Source of the DNA: Malacoraja senta
Lineage: Eukaryota
Direction: 5' to 3'
DNA length: 64,000 nt
Assembly (NCBI GenBank): GCA_038087875.1
Contig: CM075994.1
Coordinates: 2,978,001-3,042,000 of the forward strand
Below the pieces are notes generated by a model, which saw nothing but the letters and a program-made list of their open reading frames with translations, was not told the origin of the DNA and did no database searches. Below are positions 11,442-63,274 of the stretch, piece by piece; position 1 is the stretch's first letter; each line of letters opens with the position of its first letter. Both the position numbers and the translations under genes were made by a program.

Positions 11442-11468
11442 AAACCATGTGGCGCAAGGCAAATGAAG
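11442..11468 (+). CDS. Candidate 27-nt phase 1-1 micro-exon (E)TMWRKANE
   Basis: gtgaaacag|AAACCATGTGGCGCAAGGCAAATGAAG|gtacca. Confidence 0.5.
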
Positions 11469-11580
11469 GTACCACATCACAAAACATAAAGTTTTCTGCT
11501 GAAATTTTGTTGAATATTACAAATGCAATCACCTTTATCAAATCACGCGAATATTTTCATTGTGGTTGTAATTATTTTAG

Positions 11581-11607
11581 ATCAACACAAGAAATGTTCG
11601 ATCAGCA
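11581..11607 (+). CDS. Candidate 27-nt micro-exon (D)QHKKCSIS
   Basis: attattttag|ATCAACACAAGAAATGTTCGATCAGCA|gtaagt. Confidence 0.6.
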
Positions 11608-11838
11608 GTAAGTCAAACCAAAGAAACCTATAGGCAAGTTGCCTGTCCTTTTTTCAAAGCTTCTATAGAGCCTTTTGAGGCTGATTTTTTAAGACCCTGA
11701 GTAACGCAACCAATTCAAACGGTCTCTGCCAAGCTACTACCTTGTTATATTCAAGTACAATTCTCACTGTCACACTGAAGTTTTCAAGCCGTGCGAGATC
11801 ATTTGAGCCCGAATATTTGATTCCCCAATTTCTGGCAG

Positions 11839-11865
11839 GGTAGACATGCACATTAATAGTAACTG
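11839..11865 (+). pseudogene. 27-nt micro-exon-like segment with in-frame TAG
   Basis: tttctggcag|GGTAGACATGCACATTAATAGTAACTG|gtgagc; TAG at 11841-11843 in phase 1. Confidence 0.45.
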
Positions 11866-12289
11866 GTGAGCAGGTGGCATTTGCGGAAGCAAAATAAAAT
11901 CAAAACTCTGCATTAACTCAGCGGGTCAGGTAGTCTCTCTGAAGGGAAATTGACAAACAATATTTCGGTTCTGCCTCTTCTTGAGACTGGTCAAATTTTC
12001 TGTCCTCACCCTCTAGAAGTTATCCCGGTCCCACTGATTTCTTCAAGATTCCTTATGCGCAAGATTCCTGCATCTGCATTCTCGCGTGTCTCCATATACT
12101 GTGGCATTGCCTTCTAAGAATCCCAATAGCTTTAGACAGCCAACGTAGTTCATTTCATTTTCTATGTTTGAAATCCATTAAAAGTATCCTAAACATTAGA
12201 AATAACAAAAAATGCATATAAAGTTTGATTGCCGTGGAGAATACTAATACGGACGGTCATTTAGAGATTAAGAGGGTTCATAGGTACAA

Positions 12290-13110
12290 ACGGTTCAAAG
12301 TTTCATTTATTGTCACATACACCAATTGCTGTAGTGAAATTCAAGTTGGCATTGGAGCACATTAATGAGAATACAACATAACATTTTAAATAAATTTAAC
12401 ATAAAACATAAAAACATCCCCCCCACAATGGTTCCCACTGTGGTGGAAGGCACAAAGTCCAGTCCCCTCCCCTTTTCCACCCATAGTCGGACCTATTGAG
12501 GCCACCGCAGTCGCCGCTACGGGGCCCGAAGTTTCAGGCCCTTCTCGCGGGGCGATGGTGCGCTGGCGTCGGGAGAACTCTCTCAGCGGCTTGGGATGCT
12601 TGGAACGGCCATTTCCTTACCGGAGACCACGGCTTCCGAAGCCAACTGGACGGAGCTTCATCACTGGCGATCTCGGCGAGAGATCCCAGGCTCCCGATGT
12701 TAAAATCATCGCCGCCGCCCGCGGCTGGCCGCTCCACAGACCCGCAGCTCCGCGATGTTCATCGGCGGGCTCAGCTCTCCGGAGCTCCATGGCGGCGAAC
12801 CGGGCAAGGCATCGCTCGCTCCGCTCCGCGATGGCGCTCCAGCGCTGTGCCGCCGCCGAAGCCGTGGTTCTGGCCGGTCCCGTCAGGAAACGCCGCTCCG
12901 GACCTCGATGGTCGGCCGCGAGGACGGGTCGAAGTTGCTGCTCGGAGGAAAGCTGCCTCTCCGACCAGATAGGGACTAAGAAATACAGTTTCCACCCCCC
13001 ACTAAAAAAAAGAATATACCTCCAAACAAAACACTGTTTAACATACTAAAATGTTTTAAAAAAATGAAAGGCCGGACAGCTGCAGGCATGGCAGCCATAC
13101 CCAAAGGGAC
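12290..13110 (-). mobile_element. GC-rich non-autonomous retroposon with Rex1/Babar-like 3' tail
   Basis: Minus-strand tail gtgacaataaa; body related to 16298-16990, 20187-20995 and 50530-51003. Confidence 0.55.
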
Positions 13111-13129
13111 GTAGCCCCCTCACTCAGGA

Positions 13130-14045
13130 AGATGTGCTATGGCTGCTGAAGAGCAAAAAGGTGGATACATATCCTGGACCTGCTAGCATATATCCTAGGT
13201 TATTGCGAAAGTTAAAGGAGCAGATTGTGGAGCTTTGACTAATTCCGTTGCGTCTTCGTTAGCGATAGACGGGTTCCCGGAGGACTGGAATTATCTAATC
13301 TCGTTCCTTTGAAAGTTGAATGTAGTGAAAATTCGGGGAATTATATGCCAGAGGGTCTCATGTAGGTGGTTGGGAAGTTATTGGAGAGGATTTTTCGAGA
13401 TAGGATTTATACCAATTTAGAACATAATGTGATAACTGGGGTGAAGGAACTTGGCGTTGTACAAAGTTGATCGAGTTTTCTCAGAAGGTGCGGAAGGTGG
13501 CTGACGAGAGTCGGGATATCGATATCGCCTACATGATATTAGGAAGGAGTTTGATAACGTCCGCCTTGTAAGCCTGATCCAGAAGTTTAGCATGTACTGG
13601 AGTAACAGTAATTGGTCGGATAGATTTAGAACTGGCTGACTGATAGAACATAGAGTGTAGTGGTGGAAGAAAAATATTCAGGGTGGAAGTTTGTGAACAG
13701 TAGATTTCCACAACGAACTCTGTTGTATGCAATGCACATTGGGATATATATCAACTGCAGAAATGGGTGAGAAATGGCAGATGGAGTTTAATCCGAGCAA
13801 GTGGGATGTACAGCACTTTGGGAGGATAAATATAAGGGGAATTTAAGCAATTAATGGTATGAGTCGAAAGAGTATGGGTGTGCAGAGTAAACTTGGAGTC
13901 CAAACCTACAACTCCTTGAAAGTCGCAACATGTGTAGGCAAAGTGGCAATGAAGCCCTATGGTATGCTTGCTTTCATAGATCGACGAACTGGGTATAAGA
14001 CTTAACAGGTTACAATGCAGCTTTATGGAAATTCTGTTCGGGCGC
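13130..14045 (+). mobile_element. Old, degenerate CR1 ORF2 fragment
   Basis: Eroded similarity to the RT region, e.g. tggcagatggagtttaatcc and ggtatgcttgctttcatag. Confidence 0.65.
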
Positions 14046-14202
14046 ATGAAGAGCCCGAACATAATTTGACCAAATTGTGGTGAAATATCTCTGCCAGATT
14101 TTTATATCAGCACTCTCCAGAATGTGCATTAAAAGAGCAATTTCAACGGAGAATATTTAATAATGAATATTTCATAATGTATTAATTACCTTTGTTTTCC
14201 AG

Positions 14203-14220
14203 CCGAAGCACTTAGCGTAG
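14203..14220 (+). CDS. Candidate 18-nt micro-exon (A)EALSV
   Basis: tttgttttccag|CCGAAGCACTTAGCGTAG|gtaaga. Confidence 0.6.
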   Translation, partial: PKHLA

Positions 14221-15092: not shown

Positions 15093-15119
15093 AAAATGAA
15101 GCACTTCAAATAAAACTAG
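15093..15119 (+). CDS. Candidate 27-nt micro-exon (E)NEALQIKL
   Basis: catattgcag|AAAATGAAGCACTTCAAATAAAACTAG|gtaaga. Confidence 0.65.
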
Positions 15120-15127
15120 GTAAGACA

Positions 15128-17517: not shown

Positions 17518-17541
17518 CGGAAAAAGCAATGGAAATAAAAG
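17518..17541 (+). CDS. Candidate 24-nt micro-exon (A)EKAMEIK
   Basis: ctatttcatcag|CGGAAAAAGCAATGGAAATAAAAG|gtacga. Confidence 0.6.
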
Positions 17542-21002: not shown

Positions 21003-21026
21003 AGCTCAAGACGCAAAAGAAGTACG
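21003..21026 (+). CDS. Candidate 24-nt micro-exon (E)LKTQKKY
   Basis: ttgaatttcag|AGCTCAAGACGCAAAAGAAGTACG|gtaaga; resembles the exon at 61698. Confidence 0.6.
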
Positions 21027-21713: not shown

Positions 21714-21722
21714 GAGTCGACG
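21714..21722 (+). CDS. Candidate 9-nt micro-exon (G)VD
   Basis: attgtttcctcag|GAGTCGACG|gtaagg. Confidence 0.45.
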
Positions 21723-21904: not shown

Positions 21905-24900
21905 AGAAACATAGAAACATAGAAAATAGGTGCAGGAGTAGGCCATTCGCCCCTTCGAGCCTGCACCGCCATTCAATATGATCATGGCTGATCATCCAAC
22001 TCAGTATCCTGTAGCTGCCTTCTCTCCATAACCCCTCATCCCTTTAGCCACAAGGGCCACATCTAACTCCATCTTAAATATAGCCAATCAACTGGCCTCA
22101 ACTACCTTCAGTGGTGGAGAATTCCAGAGATTTACCACTCTCTGTGGGAAAAATGTTTTTCTCATCTCGGTCCTAAAAGATTCCCCCCTTATCCTTAAAC
22201 TGTGACCCCCTTGTCCTGGACTTCCCCAACATCGGGAACAATCTTCCTGCATCTAGCCTGTCCAACCCCTTAAGAATTTTGTAAGTTTCTCTAGGATCCC
22301 CCCTCAATCTTCCAAATTCTAGCGAGTACAAGCCGAGTCTATCCAGTCTTTCTTCTTATGAAAGTCCTGACATCCCAAGAATCAGTCTGTTGAACCTTAT
22401 CTGTACTCCCTCTATGGCAAGAATGTCTTTCCTCAGATTTGGAGACCAAAACTGTACGCAATACTCCAGTTGTGGTCTCACCAAGGCCCTGTAAACTGCA
22501 GTAGAAACTCCCTGCTCATTTACTCAAATCCTTTTGCTATGAATGCTAACATACCATTCGCTTTCTTCACTGCCTGCTGCACCTGCATGCCTACTTTCAA
22601 TGACTGGTGTACCCTGACAACCAGCTCTCGTTGCATCGCCCCTTTTCCTAATCGGCCAGCATTCAGATAATAGACTACTTTCCTGCTTTTGCCACCAAAG
22701 TGGATAACCTCACATTAATCCACATTATATTGCATCTGCCATGCATTTGCCCACTCACCCAGCCTATCCAAGTGCCCTTGCAGCCTCCTAGCATCCTCCT
22801 CGTAGCTTACACATCCCCCAGCTTCGTGTCATCCGCAAACTTGGAGATGATGCATTCAATTCCCTCGTACAAATCATTAATATATATTGTAAATAGCTGG
22901 GGTCACAGCACTGAGCCTTGCGGTACCCCACTAGTCACTGCCTGCCATTCTGAAAATGACCCCTTTACTCCTACTCTTTGCTTCCTGTTTGCCAGCCAGT
23001 TCTCTATCCACATCAATACTGAACCCCCAATACGATGTATCTTAAGTTTGTATACAAATCTCTTATGTGGGACCTTGACGAAAGCCTTCTGAAAGTCCAG
23101 ATATAACGTCCTCGAAAAATTATATAAGATTCGTCAGACATGATTTACCTTTCGTAAATGCATGCTGACTTTGTCCAATGATTACACCACTTTGCAAATG
23201 TGCTTCTATCCCATCTTTAATAACTGACTCTAACAGTGTCCCCACTACCGATGTTAGACTAACTGGTTTGTAATTCCCCGGTTTTCCCTCTCCCCCTCTT
23301 TTTAAAAAGTGGGGTTGCATTAGCTACCCTCCAATCCTCAGGAACTATTCCAGAATATAAAGAGTTTTGAAAAATTATCACTAATGCATCCACTATTTCT
23401 GGGGCTACTTCCTTAAGTACTCTGGGATGCAGCCAATCTGGCCATGGTAATTTATCGGCCTTTAATCTATTCAATTTACCAAACACCATTTCCCGGCTAA
23501 CCTGGATTTCACTCAGTTCCTCCATCTCATTTTACCCGCGGTCACCTGCTATTTCCGGAAGATTATTTATGTCTTCCTAAGTGAAAACAGAACCAAAGTA
23601 GTTATTCAATTGGTCTGCCATCTCCTTGTTCCCCATGATCAATTCACCTGTTTCTGACTGCAAGACCTACATTCGTTTTAACTAAACGTTTTCTCTTCAC
23701 ATATCTATAACAACTTTTGCAGTCGGTTTTTATGTTCCCTGCCAGTTTTCTTTCATAATCTATTCCCCCCTTCCTAATTAAGCCCTTTGTCCTCCTCTGC
23801 TGGACTCTGAATTTCTCCCCGTCCTCTGGTAGGCTGCTTTTTCTGGCTAATTTTTATGCTTCCTATTTGTTTTGATACTATCCCTGATTTTCCGTGTTAT
23901 CCACGGATGCACTACCTTCCCATATTTATTCTTTTGCCATACTGGAATGAACAATTGTTGTAGTTCATCCATGCAGTTTTTAAATGCCTTCCATTGCATA
24001 TCCACCGTCAACCCTTTAAGAATCAATTGCCAGACTATCTTGGCCAATTCACGTCTCATACCCTCAACGTTACCTTTCTTTGAATTCAGAACCCTTGTTT
24101 CTGAATTAATTATGTCACTCTCCATCCTAATGAAGAATCAACCACATTATGGTCATTCTTGCCCAAGGGGGCACGCACAACAAGACAGCTAACTAACCAT
24201 TCCTCGTTACTCAATACCCAGTCTAGAATAGCCTGCTCTCTCGTTGGTTCCTCTACATGTTGGTTTAGAAAACTATGTCGCATACATTCCAATAAATCAT
24301 CTTCCTCAGCACCCCTGCCAATTTGATTCACCCAATCTATATGTAGATTGAAGTCAACCATTATAACTGTTTTACCTTTGTTGCACGCATTTCTAATTTC
24401 CTGTTTGATGCCATCCCCAACTCTACTACTACTGTTAGGTGGCCTGTACACAACACCCACTAGCGATTTCTGCCCCTTAGTGTTTCGCAGCTCTACCCAT
24501 ATCGATTCCACATCCTCCAATCTAATGTCCTTCCTTTCTATTGCGTTAATCTCCTCTCTAACCAGCAACGCTACCCCACCTCGTTTTCCTTCCTGTCTTC
24601 TACCCTGATTTTACACCCCTCTGTCTCTCTGCTCACACATTTAAGAAACCCACCACTTCTTATTCTCCGTTTATTATTTTGTTTTTCTTTCCACCCTACC
24701 TGTTGGGTCTGAGTGCTTCCATTCTATGCCTCCTGCCTCACACACTGTCTACTAGCTTTCTCTATTTGAGTCTCTCCCCCAAACCGTTCTAGTTTAAAGT
24801 CTCCCCAGTAGCCTTTGCAAATGTCCCCGCAATGATCTTGGTCCCCCTCGGGTTCAAGTGCAACACGCCCTTTTTGTACAGATCACACCTTCCCCAACAG

Positions 24901-26090
24901 AGGTCCCAATGATCCAGTAACTTGAATCCCTGCCCTCTGCACCTGTCCTTCAGCCACGCATTTATCCTCCACCTAGCTCCATTCCTACTCTCACTGTCGC
25001 GTGGCACAGGCAGTCATCATGAGATTGTTACCTTTGCGGTCCTGCTCCTTAACTCTCCTCCTAACACCCTAAATTCTCCTTTCAGGACCTCTTCTCTTTT
25101 TCTACCTATGTCATTGGTACCTATATGTACCACGACCTCGGGCTCCTCTCCCTCCCATTTCAGGGTATCTTGGACATGTTCAGACACATCTCAGACCCTG
25201 GCACTAGGGAAGCAAACTACCATCCGGGCCTCCTGACTGCGTCCAGAGAATCGCCTATCTGACCCCCTAAATATAGAGTCCCCTATTACTACTGCCCTCA
25301 TCTTTTCCTTACCCTTCTGAGCAACAGGGCCGGTATCTGTACCGAAGGCCCGTCCGCTGTTGCGTCCCCCAGGTAGGCTTTCCCCCCCAACAGTACTCAA
25401 ACAGGAGTACTTATTGCCAAGGTGTGCAGCCACCGGGGTACTCTCTAGTCCCTGCCTCGGCCCCTTGCCCTTCCTAACCGTGACACACTTCTCTGCCTCC
25501 TGTGATCTTGGAGTGAACACCTCTCTGTAATTCTTCTCTATGACCTCCTCGCTCTCCCTGACAGAACGGAGGTCATCGAGCTGCTGCTCCAGGTTCCTAA
25601 TACGGTCCCTTAGGAGCCCCATCTCAATGCACGTGGCGCAGATGTGGACGTCTGGATGGCTATCAGACCGCTTGACCTCCCACATCTGACATCCAGAACA
25701 GTAAACTGCCCTGGCCCTCATACTCCCCACTTACCCTGGATACAATACAAACTGCTGGAAGAAGGGATCTGACTCACAATCAGCTGCACCCTGTTGTCCG
25801 CTTCCACGAATCAGCGGCTTCCTCAAGCCCACTTGTTTTGAAATGCGAATGGAACGTTGGAACGTTACAGATATGGGTTCCTCCCTCTGCGACCGCTCCA
25901 ACGTCTCCTGGGCCTCTGTGACGCAAAGCCCCGCGACCGGGTTTTAAACTCACCGCTCGGACGTTACTCCGCCCAGTGTAACCGCTCCAACGGCTCCTGG
26001 GCCTCTGTAAAGCAAAGCCCCGCGATCGGGTTTTAAACTCACCGCTCGGACGTTACTCCTCCCACTGTAACCGCTCCCACGGCTCCTGGG
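21905..26090 (-). mobile_element. Near full-length decayed CR1 LINE with a different ORF1 type
   Basis: Tail at 21905; broken ORF2 at ~22000-24610; ORF1 at 25730-24789 (MRARAVYCSGCQMWEV, GDS, LHLN); ~89-bp tandem units at 25892, 25981 and 26070 at the 5' end. Confidence 0.9.
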
Positions 26091-28668: not shown

Positions 28669-28695
28669 GATCAGATATATGGGAAAAATACGTTG
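28669..28695 (+). CDS. Candidate 27-nt micro-exon (G)SDIWEKYV
   Basis: aacttgttaccag|GATCAGATATATGGGAAAAATACGTTG|gtaagc. Confidence 0.65.
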
Positions 28696-30076: not shown

Positions 30077-30375
30077 AACGCCAAAAAAGCGCAGGAAATA
30101 TAAATCAAATCAATCAAATCTACACCCTTTCTGTCAAAGCGCCGACGCTTCTCGCGTATCATCTACCCAATACAGTCGAGAAGTATTTGAGAGAGTAGTG
30201 CCCTTGTTAACTGTAAATAACAAACTACACACACAAAACAGCAAAGGTACCGAAGGTCAATATCGAACCCGGTTCTCCAAGAGTTGGGAGAGAGCAGCAC
30301 TGTCCGCATAGCCTCTGCAGATGTCCATTTTGCATAGTTACACATTTATGCAACTCGTTATATTTAATTTTGTAG

Positions 30376-30402
30376 AATCTAAAGACATCGCCAAGAAAAC
30401 AA
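30376..30402 (+). CDS. Candidate 27-nt micro-exon (E)SKDIAKKT
   Basis: ttaattttgtag|AATCTAAAGACATCGCCAAGAAAACAA|gtacgt. Confidence 0.6.
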
Positions 30403-31076
30403 GTACGTAATAAAAAGCTGTTCATACTTTTCTATCGACCTTTTAACAACACACAAGGAAGATTTATACACAGAGGCACAGAGGACCATTCGAATGAATA
30501 AGGCATTAGAGAGCTAATAAATTGATTTAAAGATTAACAAACTGCAATCATTTAATATATCAAAACACCGCTCGACGGCATATTTAATATAAGGACAAAT
30601 TGCAAAATATGTTCATTATGCTGCAGTTTAATAACAAGTGTAAAGAAAGCTATCAACCAAATTAAAAAACTGAGTAATGTCTCAACTAAACTATGCTTCT
30701 GGCGAAGAGTAATGCGCAAAGTTACGGTTATAACATGTAACATATGCATGTTCCGGCTGTATATATCAAAATATTAGAACTTGTTCGTGGAAATAACATT
30801 CCTTCCAACAGATTATATGCTTGATTGATATAATTGTGTCCTATTATGAATTTCGACATCGCAAACTAAAAACCATGGTTGTTGTAGAATACAACGTCGA
30901 AGACGATAGGCATATTTCATGCAAAATATATTACTATTTCTCGAGCGTATATTTGTTCCGAGTTGGAATCGATTATCAATACATTTGATTAAATACAATT
31001 TTAATATTGTTGGAGCATAGCGTTGAACATTCAAACTTCTTAATGAAATGAGCATATTATTTCGCTTTTCTTCCAG

Positions 31077-31103
31077 TGAGACAGCTCCTCTTACAAAATG
31101 CAG
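31077..31103 (+). CDS. Candidate 27-nt micro-exon (V)RQLLLQNA
   Basis: cttttcttccag|TGAGACAGCTCCTCTTACAAAATGCAG|gtaaca; resembles the exon at 38353. Confidence 0.65.
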
Positions 31104-31199
31104 GTAACACACTCAGCCGAGGAAGAACGTAAAATCAATTTCCGAATTTCAGGTTTGTTCGTATGTATTGCATTTATAGTTACAACTTATTTTTAATTT

Positions 31200-31480
31200 T
31201 GGAAATACAGCATGGAAGCAGGCTCTACGACCCACCGAGTGCACATCGACCAGGCATCACCCATTTACACATGATGTATAGGATCCCACTGTCTCACACG
31301 AGAGCAATTTACAGAGGCCATTTAACCTATAAATTCACAGTTCTTCGGATGTGCGAGGCCGCAGGAATAGCAGCGAAAACCAAGGCGGTGTAAACAACCT
31401 TCGTGCAGCACCCACAGTCAGGAACATTCCAAGATCTCTGCATTCTGAGGCAGCAGCTCCACAATTGGATACTCTGTGGT
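31200..31480 (-). mobile_element. Old HE1/V-SINE-like SINE
   Basis: Eroded similarity to the other SINE copies (gcaatttacagaggcc, gaggcagcagctc). Confidence 0.6.
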
Positions 31481-32114: not shown

Positions 32115-32150
32115 AAATTGTTGAACTCGAGCGCAAGTTGAAAGTTTCTG
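32115..32150 (+). CDS. Candidate 36-nt exon (E)IVELERKLKVS, coiled-coil-like
   Basis: taatccttcaag|AAATTGTTGAACTCGAGCGCAAGTTGAAAGTTTCTG|gtgaga. Confidence 0.65.
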
Positions 32151-32859: not shown

Positions 32860-32886
32860 TGGAACCCCGAAGCGAGAAGTTAAAAG
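32860..32886 (+). CDS. Candidate 27-nt micro-exon (V)EPRSEKLK
   Basis: ttcccttctgtcgtag|TGGAACCCCGAAGCGAGAAGTTAAAAG|gtaaag. Confidence 0.65.
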
Positions 32887-34267: not shown

Positions 34268-34291
34268 GCTTCAACGAAAATCAATTTACAG
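34268..34291 (+). CDS. Candidate 24-nt micro-exon (G)FNENQFT
   Basis: atctttctacaaag|GCTTCAACGAAAATCAATTTACAG|gtgaat. Confidence 0.5.
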
Positions 34292-34666: not shown

Positions 34667-34693
34667 AATGCAAGTCACTTCTTCAAACTACTA
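34667..34693 (+). CDS. Candidate 27-nt micro-exon (E)CKSLLQTT
   Basis: tatttacgattag|AATGCAAGTCACTTCTTCAAACTACTA|gtaagt. Confidence 0.6.
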
Positions 34694-38352: not shown

Positions 38353-38379
38353 TGAGACAGGTGCTTGTAAAGGACATAG
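38353..38379 (+). CDS. Candidate 27-nt micro-exon (V)RQVLVKDI
   Basis: ttttaattacag|TGAGACAGGTGCTTGTAAAGGACATAG|gtaaat. Confidence 0.65.
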
Positions 38380-38705: not shown

Positions 38706-38741
38706 AGATAGCCAAACTACAGACTCAACTGCAGGAAGCTG
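38706..38741 (+). CDS. Candidate 36-nt exon (E)IAKLQTQLQEA, coiled-coil-like
   Basis: tttggtttcag|AGATAGCCAAACTACAGACTCAACTGCAGGAAGCTG|gtaagg. Confidence 0.7.
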
Positions 38742-43866: not shown

Positions 43867-44604
43867 GTTTGGGAAAAGGGGTCATCAACACCGGGATCTG
43901 GGGTCCTTTTTTTCAGTCAATTAAAGTAAGCATGCAAGTACAGCAGGCAGTGAAGAAAGCTAATGTCATGTTGGCCTTCTTAACAATAGGAGTTGAGTAT
44001 CGGAACAAATTGGTCCTTCTGCAGTTGTACAGGGCCCTAGTGATACCACACCTGGAGTATTGTGTGCTGTTTTGGTCTCCAATTTTGAGGAAGGACATTC
44101 TTGCTATTGAGGGAGTGCAGCGTGGGTTCTCAAGATTAATTCCAGGGATGGCGGGACTGTCATATATTGAGAGAATGGAGCGGCTGGGCTTGTATATGGA
44201 ATGTAGACGGATGAGAGGGGATTGTATTGAAACAAAAGATTATAAAGGGTTTGGACACGCTAGAGGCAAGAAGCATGTTCTCGATGTTGCGGGAGTCCAG
44301 AAACAGGGGCCACATTGTAAGAATAAGGGGTAAGCCATTTAGAACGGAGATGATGAAACACTTTTTCACGCAGCGAGTTGTGAGTCTGTGGAATTATCTG
44401 TCTCAGAGGGCGGCGGAGACCGGTTCTCTGGATACTTTCAAGAGAGAGCTAGATAGGGTTCTTAAAGATAGCGGTGTCACTGGATATGGGGAGAAGGCAG
44501 TAACGGGGTACTGATTATGGATGAGCAGCCATAATCACATTGAATGGCGGTGCTGGCTCGAATGGCCGAATGGCCTACTCCTGCTCCCATGGTCCATTGT
44601 CTAT
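43867..44604 (+). mobile_element. CR1 3' fragment
   Basis: PHLEYCVLFWSP and FFTQRVV motifs plus 3' UTR. Confidence 0.9.
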
Positions 44605-45505
44605 GCTAGTGCTGGAACTGATTTTAATATTGTGTTTGTCTTGAGAATTCATCGATATTTCGTGAAAATTCTAAATTATTTGGCAGTGTATCAATTTTCA
44701 ACATCTAATGACATAATTCGCTTGGGCCAATTACTTACACGTGCTTTTGATTACTCAAAGTAAGTATTTTAATTATTTGACCTGAATATTTCACGCGTGA
44801 CTTCAGTCTTTTAAATTGTTTAATTACTCCTGTGAATCATCGGATGGCGAACATGGTGGAAAAAATGATGGTTACCTCATGTACTGCGAAAGAAACATCT
44901 GTCGTGGAGATCCTGGAGGGCCTAGGGCCATGGTATATCCTACTTAAGGTCACCCTCCTCATTTAATATAAATATTAAAGCATTTCGTAAATTCGTTCTT
45001 AGACAGTCTATGACAACTGAACACCTTGTTCGTACTTCCTCTCGCAGAAGTAAATGGGTTCTACCATTCCACAATGTTGATTTCTCATTCGCGGTGGTTC
45101 ATGCGTGACTAGCCTTTGAACTCGCTGTAAGCATCTTATTCCTTCTGTTCCCCCATAAGCCAGGTGCCATATGGGATGGCTTGACGTAAGATGACGGCCC
45201 CCGATATTGCCTCCGTTTCATTCCACATAGCATTCACATACTTCTTCTCAAGGTAGAATTAAAAGCTACATTTCCTGTATCAATACACTTTTTTCGGTTC
45301 CAATATATTTAGTAGTGGTAGGTTGCACCTCAATTCGGATAATCATGCCTGTTGCATATATACAATCTCACCTCAAGGAGTTGATATTATGATTGGCCTC
45401 TACCTTTCCACCGAAACAACAAGCCATTAAAGTCAATTAATTAGTTCAGGCAAGCACGTCATCGGTAGACGGTGTTATATGATTGTTTTAATCTTTTTTC
45501 ATTAG

Positions 45506-45532
45506 GATTTAATGTTCTTCTACAAGTTCACA
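45506..45532 (+). CDS. Candidate 27-nt micro-exon (G)FNVLLQVH
   Basis: ttttttcattag|GATTTAATGTTCTTCTACAAGTTCACA|gtaagt. Confidence 0.6.
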
Positions 45533-46227
45533 GTAAGTTACTCATATAATACCTCCCACATACAAATAAAGCATTCGTTGTATTATTGTGATAGTTTGAT
45601 TATCACAATGACGAATGCTTTCTATGTGCTTCTTATTTCTTCTGAGCTCGGCGTTATTCAGAATGACTGTGTGAGCATACTCTGCCTCCTTCACTTTGCA
45701 TAGACCCATAATTCGGTTGGGCGGTGGCTACATCAAATGCACAATTTACTCCTTTTGGTGTCGATCGTGAGCAAATTGTATAGTCTGTGTTTGGATGAAA
45801 TATGTCTGAGGCTTTCACAAAAACAAAGAACGACATCTAGAAAGCTCTGGCAGTTATTTTGCAATACTCATTCGTTACTGGAATAATGCCAAATTATTCG
45901 TGAATCTCCAGAACTCCACCCAAGCTGCCTACAATAATCGCTCGTGATTTCAGCGCAGTTAGTTGGGCAAGGCATTTGAAAAATAAAGTGCAATCGTTCA
46001 ATCAGGGAAAACAGAAGAATATTCAAGAGTAGTGCATATCTCTTTATTCAAGTAAATCCAGTGTGGCTAACTTAGTTAAACGTTTTAAGAATATAATATG
46101 GAAGACGGATAAGCTCAGAGATGTTATATATTGTTCGTTTGTTTTAGCCAGGTATTTTATAATTAACCATAAATTATGAAAGCGAGAAAAAGAGAAGAAT
46201 ATTTATTGTATGCAATATATCTTTCAG

Positions 46228-46254
46228 GGGACGATGTACAAAAAAGGGATGAAG
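46228..46254 (+). CDS. Candidate 27-nt micro-exon xDDVQKRDE
   Basis: atatctttcag|GGGACGATGTACAAAAAAGGGATGAAG|gtaatt. Confidence 0.65.
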
Positions 46255-47279
46255 GTAATTTTCGTGATAGGTGACATCACTTTAAATTTTGAGGAGCAGA
46301 CCACAGAGAGCAAACTGACCGAAATATGAATGTGAGAGTTGTGAGAGCAAAGGGTTATATTTATATGTATACGGCAAATTATTCGTAGAAGTTAACCTGG
46401 AGCCGCATACAATATCAGCGGTTTCTATTAGTGAGCAAGGATATACGTAGCATTTTTTAAAAGTATTTTGTATTTGTCTGCATGTAAGATAAAACACTGA
46501 AAAAAATCACGTTATCACTCTTAAACCATGGGACCGGATAGGACAAGGAGTCTAGCATTCAAGAAAAAATATTACCGGAAGCAGGTCAATGACTTGGATA
46601 AAAAATTAACATGACGCTGCTCAGGGGGTACCGCAACCCCTTGTCCAATAAATATTAAAAGCATAATGTAGAAATTAATCACGAAGCGAAAGCATGCAAA
46701 ACATTACAAGTAGTTCATCGTATGAAAGTGCAACCAGTATATTTCGTGTTAGAATAAGCCGTCACCTGGAATAGGGTGCATCGATTTGCTTTCTCTTCCT
46801 AACGGAAATATGGAAGTTGTGTGAGATGTTCAGCTGAGGCCTGGTACATACATTCGCAGGTGGGTGGATTTTTCAGATGCGGAGGAAACAAAACACAATC
46901 TTTCAACCTGCTTATGGTGTTATTTTGATAACTCAAACACTATTATTCAAACCTTCAGAGCAGATGCAGGGAAGATAATTTGCTGAATGTCTAGTCAAGA
47001 ATCAAAGTATCGAAGTAAATAGTCGGTCATGCAAGATTTTGAATAAAAGATGTCTGCACGTTCACTTTTTGTGATTCCCCTGGAAATATTTGTGGAAGTC
47101 TACTACTTCATCCAAGGCAGGGGTAAGGAGATATTACGTGCGTCGGTTGGCGTGAGATTAGAGGAGGAACTTGACGCAAACGGGCAAGATCTATCGTAAT
47201 CGTGCAAGAAGTCTGGGCATTGGTATGAAGAACCCGATGAAGCTTATACACGTTAACATTATTTTATTTAAATATCCAG

Positions 47280-47306
47280 GTTGTGGCGTAGATGTCCCCT
47301 TACTAT
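47280..47306 (+). CDS. Candidate 27-nt micro-exon (G)CGVDVPLL
   Basis: ttaaatatccag|GTTGTGGCGTAGATGTCCCCTTACTAT|gtaagg. Confidence 0.55.
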
Positions 47307-47493
47307 GTAAGGGTCGTTATTCGTCAGACTTAATTACATTAGTATGAAGCTGCGCCAGTCGAAACCCCAGCAAATGATGAACTTCAGCGCAGAATTTGTA
47401 CATTATAATTAATTAATTTCACAGATTATTTGTTATTTTTTATTCAAGCTTTCTCAGTTGATTGATAATCAAATTTTGACCTACATATTTCAG

Positions 47494-47529
47494 TAATGGA
47501 AAAGCTGTCAAGAAGTTTGCAAGACGCCG
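47494..47529 (+). CDS. Candidate 36-nt exon xMEKLSRSLQDA, coiled-coil-like
   Basis: acatatttcag|TAATGGAAAAGCTGTCAAGAAGTTTGCAAGACGCCG|gtgaga. Confidence 0.65.
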
Positions 47530-47610
47530 GTGAGATAACCTAAATTGCTGTTAAAACGTACATATTTCGTAATCACCAGCAACATTTGCCCAGCGTTTCT
47601 TCCGTTTCAG

Positions 47611-47634
47611 AGGGGGGGTTTTCCCCGCGAGGAG
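47611..47634 (+). CDS. Candidate 24-nt micro-exon (E)GGFSPRG
   Basis: ttcttccgtttcag|AGGGGGGGTTTTCCCCGCGAGGAG|gtaata. Confidence 0.55.
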
Positions 47635-47661
47635 GTAATATAACATTGAACAAATATGAGA

Positions 47662-49302
47662 AAACGTATTAAAAAACTGGATTCAGACATTACTAATTTT
47701 ATATGGGACTATAAATCACATAGAATACAAAGAACACACTAGAACAAAGCTAAAGTATTAGGGGGGTTAGCACTCCCTAACTTCATGTATTATTATCGGT
47801 CAGTAAATATAAGAAATATGGTTCAACTGATGGACAACTCTGCCCAGCAAGTGGACTGGATTGTTATGGAGAGAGAGGACTGCTCCTCTGGAAACATTGG
47901 AGCGATCCTTCTCTCACCAATGAAATTGAATAACATAAATTATAACAAAAACCCAATTATACATAGTACAATCAGAACTTGGAAACAAATAAAACAAAAG
48001 TTAAAATTAAGACATTTATCGCTTTTATCTCCCATAATTAATAACCCTTTATTTAATCCCTCTATTACAGACAAATATGTCATACAATGGGATAGACTAG
48101 GAATTAAAACGTTCGGTGACTTGTACGAAACTGGAAAATTACTATCATTCCAACAATTACAAATAAAATATACTCAGAAATAATCAATATTTTAAATATT
48201 TTCAAATATGTGACTATTTGAAAAAATATACAAAAGATCATTATAGCCCAGCAGATGTATTGGATGAAGTAATGCAGATAAAAGCTGAATCAGCAAACGT
48301 AATATCATATTTGTATAATATTATCTTAAATGTAGAAATACCATCTACGGAAGGTATTAGAAGAGACTGGGAATAAGAATTAGCTATTAAAATCTCAAAG
48401 GAAAGGTGGAATGAACATTTATTAAACGTGCATAAATGTTCGTTTAATGTAAGACACACTTTAATACAATTTAAAATTTTACATAGATTATATTATTCTA
48501 AAATTAAATCAATACAATTTTCCCAAATGTATCATCAATTTGTGATAAATGTCAATCTCAAGAAGCTACTATAGCGCACTCATTTTTTAAATCTTTACAA
48601 AATTATTTAAAATAGAACTGATACCCAAAGCAGAATGGATTATCTTCGGAACAACGGAAGATAGTCCAGAACTAAATGTGTTCCAAAATAAATTAATAGA
48701 CTATGGGTTAATAACTGGAAACAAGTTAATACTAAAATTCGGGAAAAACGCTCCAATACCAACTTTAAACATGTGGATTTCAAACATGTTCCAAACATTA
48801 CACCTAGAAGAGATAAGACTCCTCCTGGCAGGTAAACCAGACCACTTCCACCTGACGTGGTCTGCATTTATAGAATTATTACAAGTATAGGGTGCAAAAG
48901 TACTAAAAAAAACTGAGGTCAGGTAAGGGGGGATGAAAGCTGGAGAGTTTGGTATGTCCCATTTGCGTGATGCTTACAAAAAAGTATTTGTTTTTCTCTT
49001 TTCCCTCTTTCTCTTTTTTCTTCTTTTTTAGGGTCTATTTCTTAACTCTTTCTTTTTGTTTTTTAATTTCTTTCTTATAGGGTCTTTGTTTTTTGTTTTG
49101 TTTTTGTTGTCACGTTTTTTACACTTTCACTTTTTTCCTTCACTTTCTTCTTTCTCTCAATCTCATCCTTTCCCTTTATTAGTGTAAAAAATAAACGGAG
49201 TACATTAATTGTATAAGATATATGTGACGAGTACTAATGTAACTGGTTGTAATGTAATGTACTTCTAATAAATAAAAATAAAAAAAATAAAAAATAAAAA
49301 AA
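47662..49302 (+). mobile_element. 5'-truncated L1/Tx1-like LINE (ORF2 C-terminus, 3' UTR, poly-A)
   Basis: GGLALPNF, QFKILHRLY and CDKC..H motifs; poly-A; 14-bp TSD gaacaaatatgaga (47648-47661, 49303-49316). Confidence 0.9.
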
Positions 49303-49996
49303 GAACAAATATGAGAGCATCTTCTCAACGCTGGCAAAAAAAGTATTTTCATATATCAGTTTGATGACTTTGTCATACTGGACGTCATTTGTTCACTGTT
49401 TATCCAACACGTCCAGTCGTCATATTGCATTTCTTTATTTTCAAGGTATTTTATTGAACGAACTTTTTCGGGTGGCGGTGTTCCCAATCTAATGAACGGC
49501 GTGCTCAAGAGTATGCCTGTGCTTGAGGAACTTCCGTCCCTGTGAATTTATTGCCGAATTGTCCGTTAATGTATAGGGGATAAATGAAATCACTCCTTCC
49601 CTGTTGTCCATTGCAGTTGCTCCATTCCAACAACTTTTCATTTGCCCCGCTTTGTTTTCTTGAAATCTTCTTCTTTTCATGTCATTGATATTGAAGCTGC
49701 GTTTCGTCTTTATAAATAACATGATACATCATTTTGCAATTCGTTCCTTATTAGTACATTTGAATTCCTTCGGATGCGCGCAGGAATCAGTAAAATGCTT
49801 CCAAGCTGTGTGAATCAGTTACTAATTTAGTCGGTCACTCAAACACTTGGGACCTTATATACAATTAATCCACGAATGCGCTCCTAATGAAATTATAGAA
49901 TATCCTGAGAAAACATTTGAATTATATCCTTGTCTCAGAATGACAATGCCCTGCCTAGCATCGAAGTATTGACGTTCTATTAAAATATGTTTGTAG

Positions 49997-50023
49997 AAAT
50001 CAATATCCGAAAAAAAGATTCCG
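49997..50023 (+). CDS. Candidate 27-nt micro-exon (E)INIRKKDS
   Basis: atatgtttgtag|AAATCAATATCCGAAAAAAAGATTCCG|gtaaaa. Confidence 0.55.
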
Positions 50024-50107
50024 GTAAAAACAAATATATGTTCATCATTTATGTTTTATGTTTTTACCGGTAAATGACTTTCGGGAAACCGATCGCATGC
50101 TTGGCAG

Positions 50108-50125
50108 ATAAAGGAGATATTATCG
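50108..50125 (+). CDS. Candidate 18-nt micro-exon (D)KGDII
   Basis: gcttggcag|ATAAAGGAGATATTATCG|gtgact. Confidence 0.4.
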
Positions 50126-50277
50126 GTGACTGATATATTGTGGAGTAGAGGATTAGATTTCGGAAATAAACTGCCACACAGATTTTGCTCCATTTCTGGA
50201 CACGGTGGCATGTGGCATCTCAACTCCAAGCTGCTCTGTCTTGAGTTGACCTATACACAGCTCGGAGCATGCTGCAG

Positions 50278-51251: not shown

Positions 51252-51278
51252 AATTGGCTGACCATTTGAAAGTCGATG
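51252..51278 (+). CDS. Candidate 27-nt micro-exon (E)LADHLKVD
   Basis: caatatcacag|AATTGGCTGACCATTTGAAAGTCGATG|gtgagt. Confidence 0.65.
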
Positions 51279-52475: not shown

Positions 52476-52502
52476 TTGACCGAATGAAAGAAACTAAAAC
52501 AG
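52476..52502 (+). CDS. Candidate 27-nt micro-exon (V)DRMKETKT, weak donor
   Basis: ctattgttgcag|TTGACCGAATGAAAGAAACTAAAACAG|gtccaa. Confidence 0.45.
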
Positions 52503-53883: not shown

Positions 53884-53919
53884 AACTGGAAACCGTAGCC
53901 GACATTCGTAAGGACGTCG
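53884..53919 (+). CDS. Candidate 36-nt exon (E)LETVADIRKDV
   Basis: ttaaattacag|AACTGGAAACCGTAGCCGACATTCGTAAGGACGTCG|gtaaga; internal in-frame donor after 53907. Confidence 0.6.
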
Positions 53920-56047: not shown

Positions 56048-56074
56048 AACAAATATTCTATATAAAAGAAGAAG
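56048..56074 (+). CDS. Candidate 27-nt micro-exon (E)QIFYIKEE
   Basis: tttatttggcag|AACAAATATTCTATATAAAAGAAGAAG|gtaaaa. Confidence 0.6.
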
Positions 56075-60260: not shown

Positions 60261-60261
60261 G

Positions 60262-60760
60262 CATACCTGTCCAAATATGTATCGGTCGCAACGACTTCAT
60301 CTGGATGTTAGTTTCATATGCTCGCCACCTTAAATGAGAACAAGTTGTCCCTCGGGTTCCTAATACATGTTTCCTTTATCACCTCAAACTTATGAACTCT
60401 AATTCCTAATTCCCCAACTCTCGTAAAAATACTGTGAGTATGAACAAAAAGTATTCTTCTCATTAATGTATACACCTCCAACTGATCATCTTTTAGCCTC
60501 CTGCACTCCAATGAATAAATATGTGGTCTGCCAAACCGCCCTCGATGGCTCAAGCCCTCAGGTCCAGGCAGCTTCCTCGCAAATCGTCGCTGTACTCTTT
60601 CCAGCTGAATGGCAACGCCCACATCAGAGTAACCAAAACGGGCTACAACACTGCAAGCGCGGCCTCATGAACGTCTTCTACAACTACAAAATAATGCCCT
60701 AACTTCTATATTGCATTCCCTGTCAGATGAAGGCAATATGAAGGCAGATGTACTGCTTTA
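60262..60760 (-). mobile_element. Old CR1 3' fragment
   Basis: Minus-strand LERVQRRFARKLPG...YSLECRRL; continues the LINE tail interrupted at ~57650. Confidence 0.75.
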
Positions 60761-61084
60761 CAATTACACTGGTGCGGATGTAAATGATATATATGCATGT
60801 AACATAAGAATACTTGGAAAATGGAGTACTGCGTTATATTGTCACGAAAAATATGCGCATTCTGAAATGTAATCACGACCCATGGACGTCCTTTTCCCAT
60901 GGTTCATAAATTGAAGACCGAAACGAGCAATAGATGATTATTCTTGTTTGCAAATTATTCTTTATCTAATAACTCGCTGCAGGATATATATTTGACCTAT
61001 AAAATGAGTGAATTTAACCACACGTTTTATAGTATGTCACATTGTCATCGGTCAAGTTACACAACACGAACTTTAATCAATGGG

Positions 61085-61636
61085 TGTAAACCTCTACAGG
61101 TGTACAGGAGAGAGCATGCTGACCGGTTGCATCGTGGCAAGGTTCGGCAATTTGAGCGCCCAGGAGCGTAAAAGACTACAAAATGTAGTAAACACTGCCC
61201 AGTCCATCATCGGCTCTGACCTCCATACCATCGAGGGGATCTATTGTAGTCGTTGCCTCAAAAAGGCGGGCATCATCATCAAGGAACCACACCGTCCGAG
61301 CCACACACTCATCTCCCCGCTACGTTCAGGTAGAAGGTACAGGAGCCTGACGACTGCAACGTCCAGGTTCAGAAATAGCTACTTCCCCACAGCCATCAGG
61401 CTATAAAACTCACATGAAACAAATCTCTGAACATTAATAGACCATTACCTTTTTATTTGCACTTTATCTATTTATTTATTTATGTCTGTATATATTTATA
61501 TAATGGTATATGGACACATTGATATGTTCTGTTTTCATGCCTATTCTATTCTGTTGTGCTGAAGAAAAGCAAGCATTTCATTGTCCTATCTGGGACACAT
61601 GACAATAAATTGTATTGACTTGACTTGACTTGACTC
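61085..61636 (+). mobile_element. Rex1/Babar LINE 3' end
   Basis: ESMLTGCI...RLQNVVNTAQSIIG...SGRRYRSL...RFRNSYFPTAIRL; gacaataaa and (gactt)n tail. Confidence 0.85.
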
Positions 61637-61697
61637 TTGAAATGATGGTATCTCTAAATAAGTGTCGTTTGTCTCCGTCCTTATTTCGTTATTTCAG

Positions 61698-61724
61698 AGC
61701 TTAAAGATTTTCAAAAGAAGTCAG
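61698..61724 (+). CDS. Candidate 27-nt micro-exon (E)LKDFQKKS
   Basis: ttcgttatttcag|AGCTTAAAGATTTTCAAAAGAAGTCAG|gtaaat. Confidence 0.65.
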
Positions 61725-61977
61725 GTAAATAATAGGATGTTTCAGTTTAGACTTTCAGTGTGTACTTTGAAAAAATAATATAGAAACACGCCCCACAAAG
61801 TGCACTTCCTTGAAGGTGACATTATGTCAATGAAAAACTATTGATATCGTGCGATCTGGATGTAAAATAGCCACCAGCAATATGTTGCTTTTGCATCTAC
61901 ATATATAGAGTTATGGAAACATGCCTTCGGCCCAGCTTGGTCATACCGGTATAGATGCCTCTTCTACACTAGACCCA

Positions 61978-62158
61978 GTAGACAAAAATGCTGGAGAAAC
62001 TCAGCGCGTGAGGCAGCATCTATGGAGCGAAGGAAATAGTCAACATTTCGACCCGAAACGTTGCCTATTTCATTCGATCCACAGATGCTGCCTCGCCCCC
62101 TGAGTTTCTCCAGCATTTTGTCTATCTTCGATTTTCCAGCATCTGCAGTTCCTTCTTA
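61978..62158. mobile_element. Palindromic (head-to-head) Penelope-like repeat
   Basis: gacaaaaatgctggagaaactcag ... ctgagtttctccagcattttgtc inverted around ~62050. Confidence 0.7.
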
Positions 62159-62164
62159 TAGAAT

Positions 62165-62790
62165 AGTCCCAATTGCCTGCGTTTGGCCCGTATCACTCTA
62201 AACCTTTCGTATTCATGTATCTGTCCAAGTGTTTTTTAAATATAGTTATAGAACCTGCTTCAAACACGTCCTCTGGCAAATCGTTCCATATACCCACGAC
62301 CATCCGCCTGAAAAAAATGCCCCTCAGCCTCCTATTTGCTATTTCCTTCTCACCATGAACATTTGTTTCCGGCTTCTTGATTCCCCTATTCTGGGAAAAA
62401 TACTGTGGATCTTCCATATATATTCCCCGCATTATCAAACACACCTCCATAATACCATCTGTTAACATCCTACGCTTCAAGGGATAAAGTTCTGGCCTGC
62501 CCAACCTCTCCTTATATTTCAGGCCCTCAAATTCAGCCAACATACTCGTAAATCTTCACGGTACTCTTTTAATCTTAACAATATCTTTCAAATAGTATGA
62601 TGACCACACATTGGCACAATACTTCAAATTCGGCCTCGCCCACGTCGTATATAACAGCAGCATATAATCGCAACATCCATACTCAATACCCAGACTATTA
62701 AAGGAGAATATGCCGAAATCCCTCCAGAACACCTTATCTAACGGTGTTGGCACCAACAAGGCACTATGTACGTGGTGTCCTAGATACATC
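62165..62790 (-). mobile_element. Old CR1 3' fragment
   Basis: ARPNLKYCANVWS and FKKHLDRYM on the minus strand. Confidence 0.8.
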
Positions 62791-63250
62791 TACGCTGTAA
62801 AAACTCTCTGGAGCCAATGGTTAATATGTTCAATTCCCTTAATATCGTTTCAAAATATGCAGCATGTCTATATTCTGCCTCCGGCTTTCTTCTTGTGAGC
62901 GCATCTAGTAAAGGCGCTGCACAATTGGACTCGATCGTGGGCATGGTCAACTAACCCTCGAACATACATCCGGAGAGCTAATATAATGTACTCCAGATCC
63001 CAAAATCTACTGTGTCTTGTGTCTCAAACATATAAAATTTGCCAAGTTTAGCGGTAATATTAGGTCGCCGATTTTTCCTATATGTAAAAGAAAATAGCTG
63101 ACGTCGAGTCTTCGCCTCCCTTGAAAAGCTGGCACTGTTCTGTTCCATTCTGCAATGTGGCTCTAAATGGAAGAAAAACAGACGTCTACGCGTAGCGGGA
63201 AACATCACTTAGATTAGTTACATGACAGCAATAAACACAAGGATGTAAAG

Positions 63251-63274
63251 TTCACACTCCATATCCCGGAACGA
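63251..63274 (+). CDS. Candidate 24-nt micro-exon (V)HTPYPGT
   Basis: gatgtaaag|TTCACACTCCATATCCCGGAACGA|gtatgt; poor pyrimidine tract. Confidence 0.3.

What the first reader, a model, noticed from the sequence alone, without database searches (positions are those of the whole stretch)
11442..63274. Hidden array of ~35 symmetric phase-1 micro-exons (mode 27 nt): a large micro-exon gene invisible to the ORF track
Seen: in the non-repeat DNA of the + strand, pyrimidine-tract-AG...GT(A/G)A-type signal pairs recur at lengths that are multiples of 3. Nineteen are exactly 27 nt, four are 36 nt, seven are 24 nt, and the rest are 9, 15, 18, 21, 30 or 90 nt. Read as phase 1-1, 18 of the 19 27-mers are open and most end in G, giving E/D/G/V/A junction codons. 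The peptides are very diverse (ETMWRKANE, DQHKKCSIS, ENEALQIKL, GSDIWEKYV, VRQLLLQNA, VEPRSEKLK, ECKSLLQTT, GCGVDVPLL, ELADHLKVD, ELKDFQKKS). Known analogues: chicken BG/butyrophilin cytoplasmic tails, TSBP1 and triadin use runs of tiny phase-1 exons, and schistosome MEGs generate variation by skipping symmetric micro-exons. Inference: because the exons are symmetric, any subset can be skipped in frame, so this could be an undescribed combinatorial or hypervariable protein system in a cartilaginous fish. Caveat: I picked candidates by eye, so selection bias is possible, and I saw no start, signal, transmembrane or terminal exon.
Basis: partly seen in the sequence, partly recalled or inferred. 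Interest (0 to 1): 0.88.

Follow-up and report, generated by a model that had tools for sequence, protein, structure and literature searches.

The report
Giant micro-exon coiled-coil B30.2 gene family
The tiny exons are real: they belong to a family of very large genes in sharks, rays and chimaeras that build a long coiled-coil rod from many 27- and 36-base exons and usually end in a butyrophilin-like B30.2 binding domain, a design that automatic annotation appears to capture only in fragments.

Summary
Observation confirmed. With a splice model trained outside the window, 27-nt AG..GT pairs number 10 on + and 0 on −; the permutation mean is 0.26. About 28 candidates lie in the window. The array continues downstream: 187 candidates over ~740 kb, about 1,780 aa if joined. 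Of 94 exons picked on splice signals alone, 92 are open in phase 1. A 27+36-nt pair makes 21 aa, three heptads. Seventeen exon pairs duplicated ~360–400 kb apart give dN 0.32 and dS ~3.2, with flanking introns at random identity: old purifying selection. The same-strand array ends in a phase-1 B30.2/SPRY exon 756 kb from the window start, closest to BTN3A1 among solved structures. That domain belongs to a cartilaginous-fish clade with five copies in this genome, each beside micro-exons. Relatives include a 1,697-aa elephant-shark protein, and their models differ by exact 6-, 9- and 12-aa cassettes. No Ig, RING, B-box or transmembrane exon was found. No RNA data were available, so whether the window's block splices through to B30.2 (~55%) or is a separate tail-only paralogue (~30%) is open. 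'Hypervariable, schistosome-like' is not supported.

The parts
11442..11468 (+). 27-nt phase 1-1 micro-exon; first detected exon of the array
   Evidence: paired by order with +368372
11839..11865 (+). 27-nt AG..GT unit with good splice signals but a phase-1 stop (decayed or poison exon)
14203..14220 (+). 18-nt micro-exon
   Evidence: paralogue +369895
15093..15119 (+). 27-nt micro-exon; matches Narcine protein residues 64-72
   Evidence: (p 0.02)
17518..17541 (+). 24-nt micro-exon
21003..21026 (+). 24-nt micro-exon
21714..21722 (+). 9-nt micro-exon
   Evidence: paralogue +383100
28669..28695 (+). 27-nt micro-exon; matches Narcine residues 107-115
   Evidence: (p 0.04)
30376..30402 (+). 27-nt micro-exon (ends in A)
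31077..31103 (+). 27-nt hallmark exon; the same type lies 28 kb and 65 kb upstream of the two C18 B30.2 exons
   Evidence: (p 0.01)
32115..32150 (+). 36-nt micro-exon, heptad type
32860..32886 (+). 27-nt micro-exon
34268..34291 (+). 24-nt candidate (generic matrix only)
34667..34693 (+). 27-nt micro-exon with weak acceptor; clear paralogue at +409868
38353..38379 (+). 27-nt hallmark exon, second copy in the window
38706..38741 (+). 36-nt micro-exon, heptad type
45506..45532 (+). 27-nt candidate (weaker donor)
46228..46254 (+). 27-nt micro-exon
47280..47306 (+). 27-nt candidate (generic matrix only)
47494..47529 (+). 36-nt micro-exon, heptad type
47611..47634 (+). 24-nt linker-type micro-exon
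49997..50023 (+). 27-nt micro-exon
51252..51278 (+). 27-nt micro-exon
52476..52502 (+). 27-nt candidate
53884..53919 (+). 36-nt micro-exon; matches Narcine residues 167-178
   Evidence: (p 0.01)
56048..56074 (+). 27-nt micro-exon
60727..60771 (+). 45-nt candidate
61698..61724 (+). 27-nt micro-exon; last detected in the window. The array continues outside the window along G000:C18 to 3.54 Mb, resumes at 3.64-3.73 Mb and ends in a phase-1 B30.2 exon at C18:3733604-3734124
   Evidence: outside parts:

Best explanation
The window holds the 5'-most detected block of a very large gene of a cartilaginous-fish family built as a long coiled coil followed by B30.2. SHOWN: the exons are phase 1-1; the commonest pair, 27+36 nt, codes 21 aa with hydrophobic residues at positions 4, 11, 14 and 18 (three heptads); the exons are under purifying selection; they are homologous to the coiled-coil part of B30.2 proteins from ray, shark and chimaera; a B30.2 exon closes the same-strand array. 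INFERRED: the window block splices on through ~190 exons and across a ~100-kb intron that holds an antisense RBM4-like gene. That would give a ~745-kb gene and a protein of ~1,800-2,000 aa. INFERRED mechanism: two chains form a rod of roughly 270-300 nm (0.15 nm per residue, textbook value) carrying B30.2 heads that bind a cytosolic ligand, like a butyrophilin tail or a TRIM coiled-coil-PRYSPRY half without Ig, RING or B-box. Exon duplication lengthened the rod. Skipping a 27+36 pair would shorten it in register; skipping one exon would break the heptad phase. Family membership and coding status about 0.9; the single continuous transcript about 0.55.
For: Exon statistics. Heptad pattern: 36-mer positions 2, 5 and 9 are 82%, 97% and 61% L/I/V/M/F (n=34); 27-mer position 4 is 65% and position 7 is Lys in 39 of 63. 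Selection: 17 pairs, 73 of 137 aa identical against about 20 expected; codon-position identity 0.66/0.80/0.46; flanks 0.508 against 0.510 random. Six of 21 window exons match the Narcine N-terminal 207 aa at p<=0.05, five of them in colinear order. One hallmark exon pattern has 6 matches in the genome, all on C18 +: two in the window and one just upstream of each C18 B30.2 exon; control 0. Five B30.2 exons form a distinct group (E<=4e-36, next 1.5e-21), each on the strand of nearby micro-exons (for one of the five the evidence is). Clade SH-aLRT 100. A Callorhinchus model has ~1,500 aa before SPRY, and its two versions differ by exact 9- and 12-aa inserts. The 187 candidates sum to 1,776 aa, a similar size. 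The start of one short model (Leucoraja) is a translated polypyrimidine tract with another strong exon 20.7 kb upstream, so short models can be 5'-truncated. No start, terminal or B30.2 exon was found between the blocks.
Against: No transcript from this organism was seen. No start exon was found. The Narcine (353-378 aa) and Scyliorhinus (442-460 aa) models cover only the last ~200-280 aa of rod. The exons after RBM4 match them better than the window exons do, so that block may be a gene by itself. Only 4 of the scanned exons match the long Callorhinchus protein at p<=0.015, not in order. A minus-strand array at C18:4.65-5.6 Mb has no clade B30.2 on its strand. The window block lacks the ~10 exons that precede its paralogue within 32 kb. 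Scaffold gaps lie at -21, +97, +187, +236, +265 and +598 kb. The 17 exon pairs were chosen by order, length and likeness, which inflates identity, and dS is near saturation.
Confidence: 0.55

Rival explanations
1. The window block (to about +197 kb, or to RBM4) is a separate, functional paralogue that lacks B30.2: a rod-only protein that could pair with a B30.2-bearing paralogue, as proposed for chicken BG tails and orphan B30.2 domains.
For: The RBM4-like gene and a ~100-kb stretch with almost no exons separate the long array from the B30.2 block. Database models start inside the last block. A 32-kb exon-poor stretch follows +197 kb. The minus-strand array has no clade B30.2. BG/orphan-30.2 pairing is suggested in PMC5938342 (passage).
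Against: No terminal exon or stop-bearing last exon was identified, and the last exons before RBM4 keep GT donors in both paralogous arrays (weak, since unique introns are still 70-75% alike). At least one short model is 5'-truncated. A long B30.2-bearing relative exists.
Confidence: 0.3
2. A partial duplicate of the middle of the gene that is no longer expressed (pseudo-exons).
For: The block begins abruptly with exons that are internal in its paralogue. One exon carries a stop (11839). Window splice scores are lower than the downstream ones on which the matrix was trained.
Against: Introns have decayed to random identity and third codon positions to 0.46, yet 14 of 15 exons stay open with intact splice sites and dN is about a tenth of dS. 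Loss of function, if any, must be recent.
Confidence: 0.07
3. A hypervariable, combinatorially spliced system like schistosome micro-exon genes, where skipping creates a diverse repertoire.
For: All exons are symmetric. Models of relatives differ by single 6-, 9- or 12-aa cassettes. An Atlas cluster of long SPRY proteins carries a name with 'isoform X51' (a lead only).
Against: Purifying, not diversifying, selection, and a conserved heptad register. Each isoform pair seen differs by one cassette. The Callorhinchus differences are between two annotation versions, not isoforms. No signal peptide or transmembrane exon was found.
Confidence: 0.07
4. Chance splice-like signals picked by eye.
Against: Strand, permutation, phase, paralogy and homology tests all reject chance.
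Confidence: 0.01

Closest known systems
Butyrophilins (BTN/BTNL)
   Same: Heptads followed by a terminal B30.2 (PMC4046983 and PMC5938342, passages). The best solved-structure match of the B30.2 exon is BTN3A1 (E 3e-24), ahead of TRIM58, pyrin and TRIM21 (E 8e-19 to 1e-16).
   Different: Butyrophilins have Ig domains, a transmembrane segment and only a few heptads. Here there are up to ~190 exons, mostly 27 and 36 nt, and no Ig or transmembrane exon was found.
Chicken BG genes, including intestinal zipper protein
   Same: A long coiled-coil tail built of many tiny phase-1 exons with split junction codons, alternatively spliced and in expanding gene clusters (PMC5938342 and PMC4046983, passages).
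   Different: BG exons are 21 nt (a few 18 or 24), about 28-38 per gene, with IgV plus transmembrane and no B30.2. Here the unit is 27+36 nt, the genes span hundreds of kb, and B30.2 is present.
Enterophilins (guinea pig)
   Same: Recalled, not tested: extended leucine-zipper heptads followed by B30.2, cytosolic. The library passage confirms only an enterophilin-1/SNX1 interaction (PMC13749957).
   Different: Far shorter (recalled). No sequence comparison was made, and exon sizes were not checked.
TRIM proteins with PRY-SPRY (the database labels TRIM39-, TRIM58-, TRIM69- and A33-like given to the relatives)
   Same: Coiled coil followed by B30.2. The Atlas model of the Narcine protein resembles TRIM and butyrophilin models at TM about 0.5.
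   Different: No RING or B-box in any relative scanned or in 85 upstream ORFs.
Uncharacterised long SPRY proteins of chordates in ESM Atlas clusters (1,277-1,802 aa)
   Same: Similar length with SPRY/PRY; feature scores 0.92 and 0.90 to the Callorhinchus protein.
   Different: Automatic names only. Members could not be fetched, so species, exon sizes and kinship are untested. They suggest the long-rod-plus-SPRY design is not unique to cartilaginous fish.
Schistosome micro-exon genes (MEGs)
   Same: Many symmetric micro-exons (recalled; one review appeared in a search listing only).
   Different: MEGs code short, secreted, fast-evolving proteins (recalled). These exons code a conserved coiled coil linked to B30.2.

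Membership tests
Butyrophilin / BTNL | Terminal B30.2 (PRY-SPRY) exon in phase 1 | tested here: met
   PF00622 E 9.6e-12; phase-1 acceptor with a 27-nt exon upstream. Splicing from the window block itself is not shown.
Butyrophilin / BTNL | Heptad repeats on small exons before B30.2 | tested here: met
Butyrophilin / BTNL | Extracellular IgV/IgC domains | tested here: not met
   No Ig family in 85 of 89 + strand ORFs >=75 aa from four candidate 5' regions (4 long ORFs left out), nor in the family relatives scanned. A 200-N gap at -21 kb and truncated models limit this.
Butyrophilin / BTNL | Transmembrane exon | tested here: inconclusive
   None found near the array starts. The hydrophobic start of the Leucoraja model is a translated polypyrimidine tract. 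The hydrophobic start of the Callorhinchus model could not be checked on DNA.
Chicken BG | Tail of many 21-nt exons, one heptad each | tested here: not met
   7 of 187 candidates are 21 nt; 98 are 27 nt and 45 are 36 nt
Chicken BG | IgV plus transmembrane, no B30.2 | tested here: not met
TRIM (RBCC-PRYSPRY) | RING and B-box | tested here: not met
Schistosome-type MEG system | Nearly all coding sequence on symmetric micro-exons | tested here: met
   no convincing large internal exon in the array
Schistosome-type MEG system | Extensive combinatorial skipping in transcripts | not testable with these tools
   The only runs listed were DNA
Schistosome-type MEG system | Fast, diversifying evolution; secreted product | tested here: not met
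   dN 0.32 against dS ~3.2; no signal exon found
Cartilaginous-fish coiled-coil-B30.2 clade (defined here) | Rod exons homologous to those of clade proteins | tested here: met
Cartilaginous-fish coiled-coil-B30.2 clade (defined here) | Window exons and B30.2 on one transcript | not testable with these tools
   needs long-read RNA

The most novel reading that the evidence does not exclude
An undescribed, >400-million-year-old (divergence date recalled) family of half-megabase-scale genes in cartilaginous fish. Each has 150-200+ symmetric micro-exons and makes an Ig-less, butyrophilin-related cytosolic rod with B30.2 heads. Rod length and heptad register would be tuned by regulated exon skipping, and the genes are largely missed or truncated by annotation. 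They fill several megabases on two contigs here.
Probability: 0.35. Interest if true: 0.8.

Novelty: new variant of a known kind. Interest (0 to 1): 0.66.

Why it matters
The family would be among the most micro-exon-rich vertebrate genes, and it shows a blind spot in annotation: relatives are filed under misleading labels (TRIM39-like, A33-like, nuclear-pore anchor-like), and at least one model is truncated with an artefactual hydrophobic start. It extends the tiny-exon coiled coil plus B30.2 design of butyrophilins and BG genes to cartilaginous fish with a different unit (27+36 nt = 3 heptads). That bears on where butyrophilin tails came from. It also gives a direct test of whether micro-exon skipping tunes the length of a coiled-coil rod.

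Tried and rejected
RNA evidence: no RNA holder was listed. Both runs laid on window 44001-50250 are DNA contigs that cover the introns. This is no evidence on expression.

N-terminal anchor or signal peptide: three database relatives start with a short hydrophobic stretch. For the Leucoraja one, the matching DNA here is the polypyrimidine tract of a 27-nt exon, with a further strong exon 20.7 kb upstream. I reject it for that model; the other two were not checked.

Start, Ig, RING, B-box or transmembrane exons: none convincing in four candidate 5' regions.

A nearer B30.2 between -200 and +484 kb: none by local tblastn.

A ~1-kb stretch shared by the ends of two paralogous arrays looked like a terminal exon. 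It is no better conserved than other unique intron DNA (70-75%) and may be the antisense RBM4 3' UTR.

Collagen-type 27/36-nt exons: rejected, Gly is 2.5% of residues.

Close DNA paralogues of window 30300-32950: only a short dispersed repeat.

Long homologues by the coiled-coil part of the Callorhinchus protein: only its older model, among 7,999 candidates scored.

The AlphaFold job on the Narcine protein was still unfinished at each collection and is not used. The careful tree search did not finish; the quick tree is cited.

Earlier findings of the scan: nothing by place, sequence or words.

Literature: no paper on this family (0-1 hits each, unrelated by listing); one search gave nothing useful on TSBP1 structure. 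The library lacks most subscription papers.

Full report
OBSERVATION. The window is G000:C18:2978001-3042000 in a 1.94-Gb genome. A generic splice matrix (frequencies recalled) gave 11 AG..GT pairs of 27 nt on + and none on − at thresholds 0/1. A matrix trained on 53 exons downstream of the window gave 22 pairs of 6-60 nt on + (18 of them 3n, ten 27-nt) and 6 on − (one 3n). Shifting donors against acceptors 2000 times gave a mean of 0.26 and a maximum of 3 27-mers, against 10 observed. Of 15 window exons chosen on splice signals alone, 14 are open in phase 1, 5 in phase 0 and 9 in phase 2. I support about 28 candidates, not ~35. The one at 11839 has a stop, and the one at 48808 lies in a repeat and is dropped.

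EXTENT. The upstream 200 kb has no such excess. Downstream the array continues: 134 candidates on + against 9 on − over 453 kb under identical rules, which require an open frame and include an exon-body score. From the first window exon to C18:3.729 Mb there are 187 candidates (98 of 27 nt, 45 of 36, 20 of 24), 1,776 aa if joined; about 50 kb of that span was not fetched. Two exon-type patterns matched 18 and 14 places in the genome (controls 0 and 1). All lie on C18:3.0-4.15 Mb (+), C18:4.65-5.6 Mb (−), C5:15.7-18.1 Mb (both strands) or one small contig. Samples from the other arrays confirm them.

WHAT THE EXONS CODE. The commonest neighbours are 27 and 36 nt (54 of 117 successive pairs). 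In that 21-aa unit, hydrophobic residues fall at 4, 11, 14 and 18, with Lys at 7 in 39 of 63 exons: three heptads. Lys, Leu, Glu and Arg make up 45% of residues and Gly 2.5%. The window block (11-66 kb) is colinear with a block at +368 to +462 kb. Seventeen pairs, chosen by order, length and likeness, share 73 of 137 aa against about 20 expected from other array exons of the same length. Codon-position identity is 0.66/0.80/0.46, dN is 0.32, dS about 3.2 (near saturation), and flanking introns are at random identity. That is old purifying selection on a rod, not hypervariability.

THE 3' END. A phase-1 terminal exon at C18:3733604-3734124 (756 kb from the window start) codes a 172-aa B30.2/SPRY domain. 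Its best PDB match is BTN3A1. In this genome it heads a group of five (100, 71, 40, 38 and 38% identity, E<=4e-36; next best 1.5e-21; 150 of 740 candidates scored). Four have a 27-nt exon just upstream on the same strand; the fifth has such exons 60-80 kb upstream. A quick tree of 67 domains puts these five with Narcine, Scyliorhinus, Cetorhinus, Rhincodon, Leucoraja, Callorhinchus and two unnamed sequences in one 15-row branch (SH-aLRT 100), apart from 52 mostly unnamed B30.2 domains. The sister group was not determined.

RELATIVES. Database models are Narcine 'A33-like' (353-378 aa), Scyliorhinus 'TRIM39-like' (442-460 and 358 aa) and Callorhinchus 'nuclear-pore anchor-like' (1,697 aa), among others. 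Pfam finds only SPRY or PRY in them, apart from one sub-threshold hit. Narcine isoforms differ by exact 6- and 9-aa cassettes. One Scyliorhinus pair and one Callorhinchus pair differ by 9 aa, and two annotation versions of the long Callorhinchus protein differ mostly by 9- and 12-aa inserts. These sizes match the 18-, 27- and 36-nt exons here. Six of 21 window exons match the Narcine N-terminal part at p<=0.05 against shuffles (18 of 118 over the wider region), five of them in order. A hallmark exon occurs twice in the window and once just upstream of each C18 B30.2. So the window's exons belong to this family.

WHAT IS OPEN. The long array stops at C18:3.54 Mb. An RBM4-like gene lies antisense at 3.55-3.60 Mb (RRM and CCHC). 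Then 29 candidates at C18:3.64-3.73 Mb, colinear with the Narcine protein, lead to B30.2. Either this is one ~745-kb gene with RBM4 in an intron, or the window block is a separate rod-only paralogue. For one gene: no terminal or start exon was found between blocks, the summed length resembles the Callorhinchus protein, and the Leucoraja model proved 5'-truncated, its hydrophobic start being a translated polypyrimidine tract. For separate genes: the short models, the exon-poor stretches, the weak match of these exons to the long Callorhinchus protein, and a minus-strand array with no clade B30.2. No Ig, RING, B-box or transmembrane exon was found in four candidate 5' regions. No RNA run was available.

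MECHANISM. Most likely a cytosolic, dimeric coiled-coil rod with B30.2 heads that binds a ligand at a distance set by rod length; this is inferred from butyrophilin, BG and TRIM knowledge. Symmetric phase-1 exons allowed growth by duplication and allow in-frame skipping. A 27+36 pair removes three whole heptads, while a single exon shifts the register. The ligand and tissue are unknown; dimer formation is inferred, not shown.

COMPARISON AND NOVELTY. Butyrophilins have Ig, transmembrane, a few heptads and B30.2. BG genes have IgV, transmembrane, many 21-nt exons and no B30.2 (PMC5938342 and PMC4046983, passages read). Enterophilins are recalled as heptads plus B30.2; only an SNX1 passage was seen (PMC13749957). 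This family works like those tails but fails membership on Ig and on exon size. ESM Atlas lists chordate clusters of long SPRY proteins (1,277-1,802 aa, automatic names), so the overall design may recur elsewhere. Searches found no paper on this family; the library is limited to open papers, and no supplements were read. PMC10789856 (passages) was used only for FoxG neighbours. Verdict: real, a new variant of a known kind, interest 0.66.

Noticed in passing
L038:28-1134 (− strand; about 29-30 kb upstream of the window): Intact single-ORF FoxG gene (Forkhead, E 3.6e-39), head to head with the array. A 200-N scaffold gap at -21 kb lies between them. The paralogue (foxg1b or foxg1c) was not determined.
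   Followed up: partly
L074-L084 (C18:3.547-3.604 Mb, − strand): RBM4-like gene (RRM, CCHC). 28 kb of it is repeated at 99.6% on both sides of a 200-N gap, probably an assembly artefact.
   Followed up: partly
L075:5700-6161 (+): Fragment of a CCCH zinc finger, ZFP36-like by recall, 3.6 kb after the B30.2 exon; it appears frameshifted.
   Followed up: no
C18:4.65-5.60 Mb; L101: Minus-strand micro-exon array between two plus-strand parts of the second gene copy, with no clade B30.2 on its strand. Near-identical exons lie at C18:4989314, C18:5596182 and C4996. It may be an inversion, a misoriented scaffold or rod-only genes.
   Followed up: partly
C18:6.5-11.6 Mb and many small contigs: A separate, very large set of other B30.2 exons (740 candidates, 150 scored, 26-34% identity to the array's domain).
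   Followed up: no
window 3298-7091, 24110-25730, 35409-37418: LINE-like endonuclease and reverse-transcriptase ORFs, CR1-type by recall.
   Followed up: no
window 7188-10912: Three arrays of a 65-bp tandem repeat just upstream of the first micro-exon.
   Followed up: no
window 11839-11865: 27-nt unit with good splice signals and an in-frame stop; a decayed exon, or a poison exon that could switch the gene off.
   Followed up: no
L025-L026 region (about -156 to -148 kb, + strand): A few strong small-exon signals upstream of FoxG (39, 30 and 15 nt), one with a Gly-X-Y-like peptide; possibly another gene.
   Followed up: no
+150 to +197 kb (L009-L014): A run of about ten near-regular 27+36-nt exon pairs, the purest form of the three-heptad unit.
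   Followed up: partly
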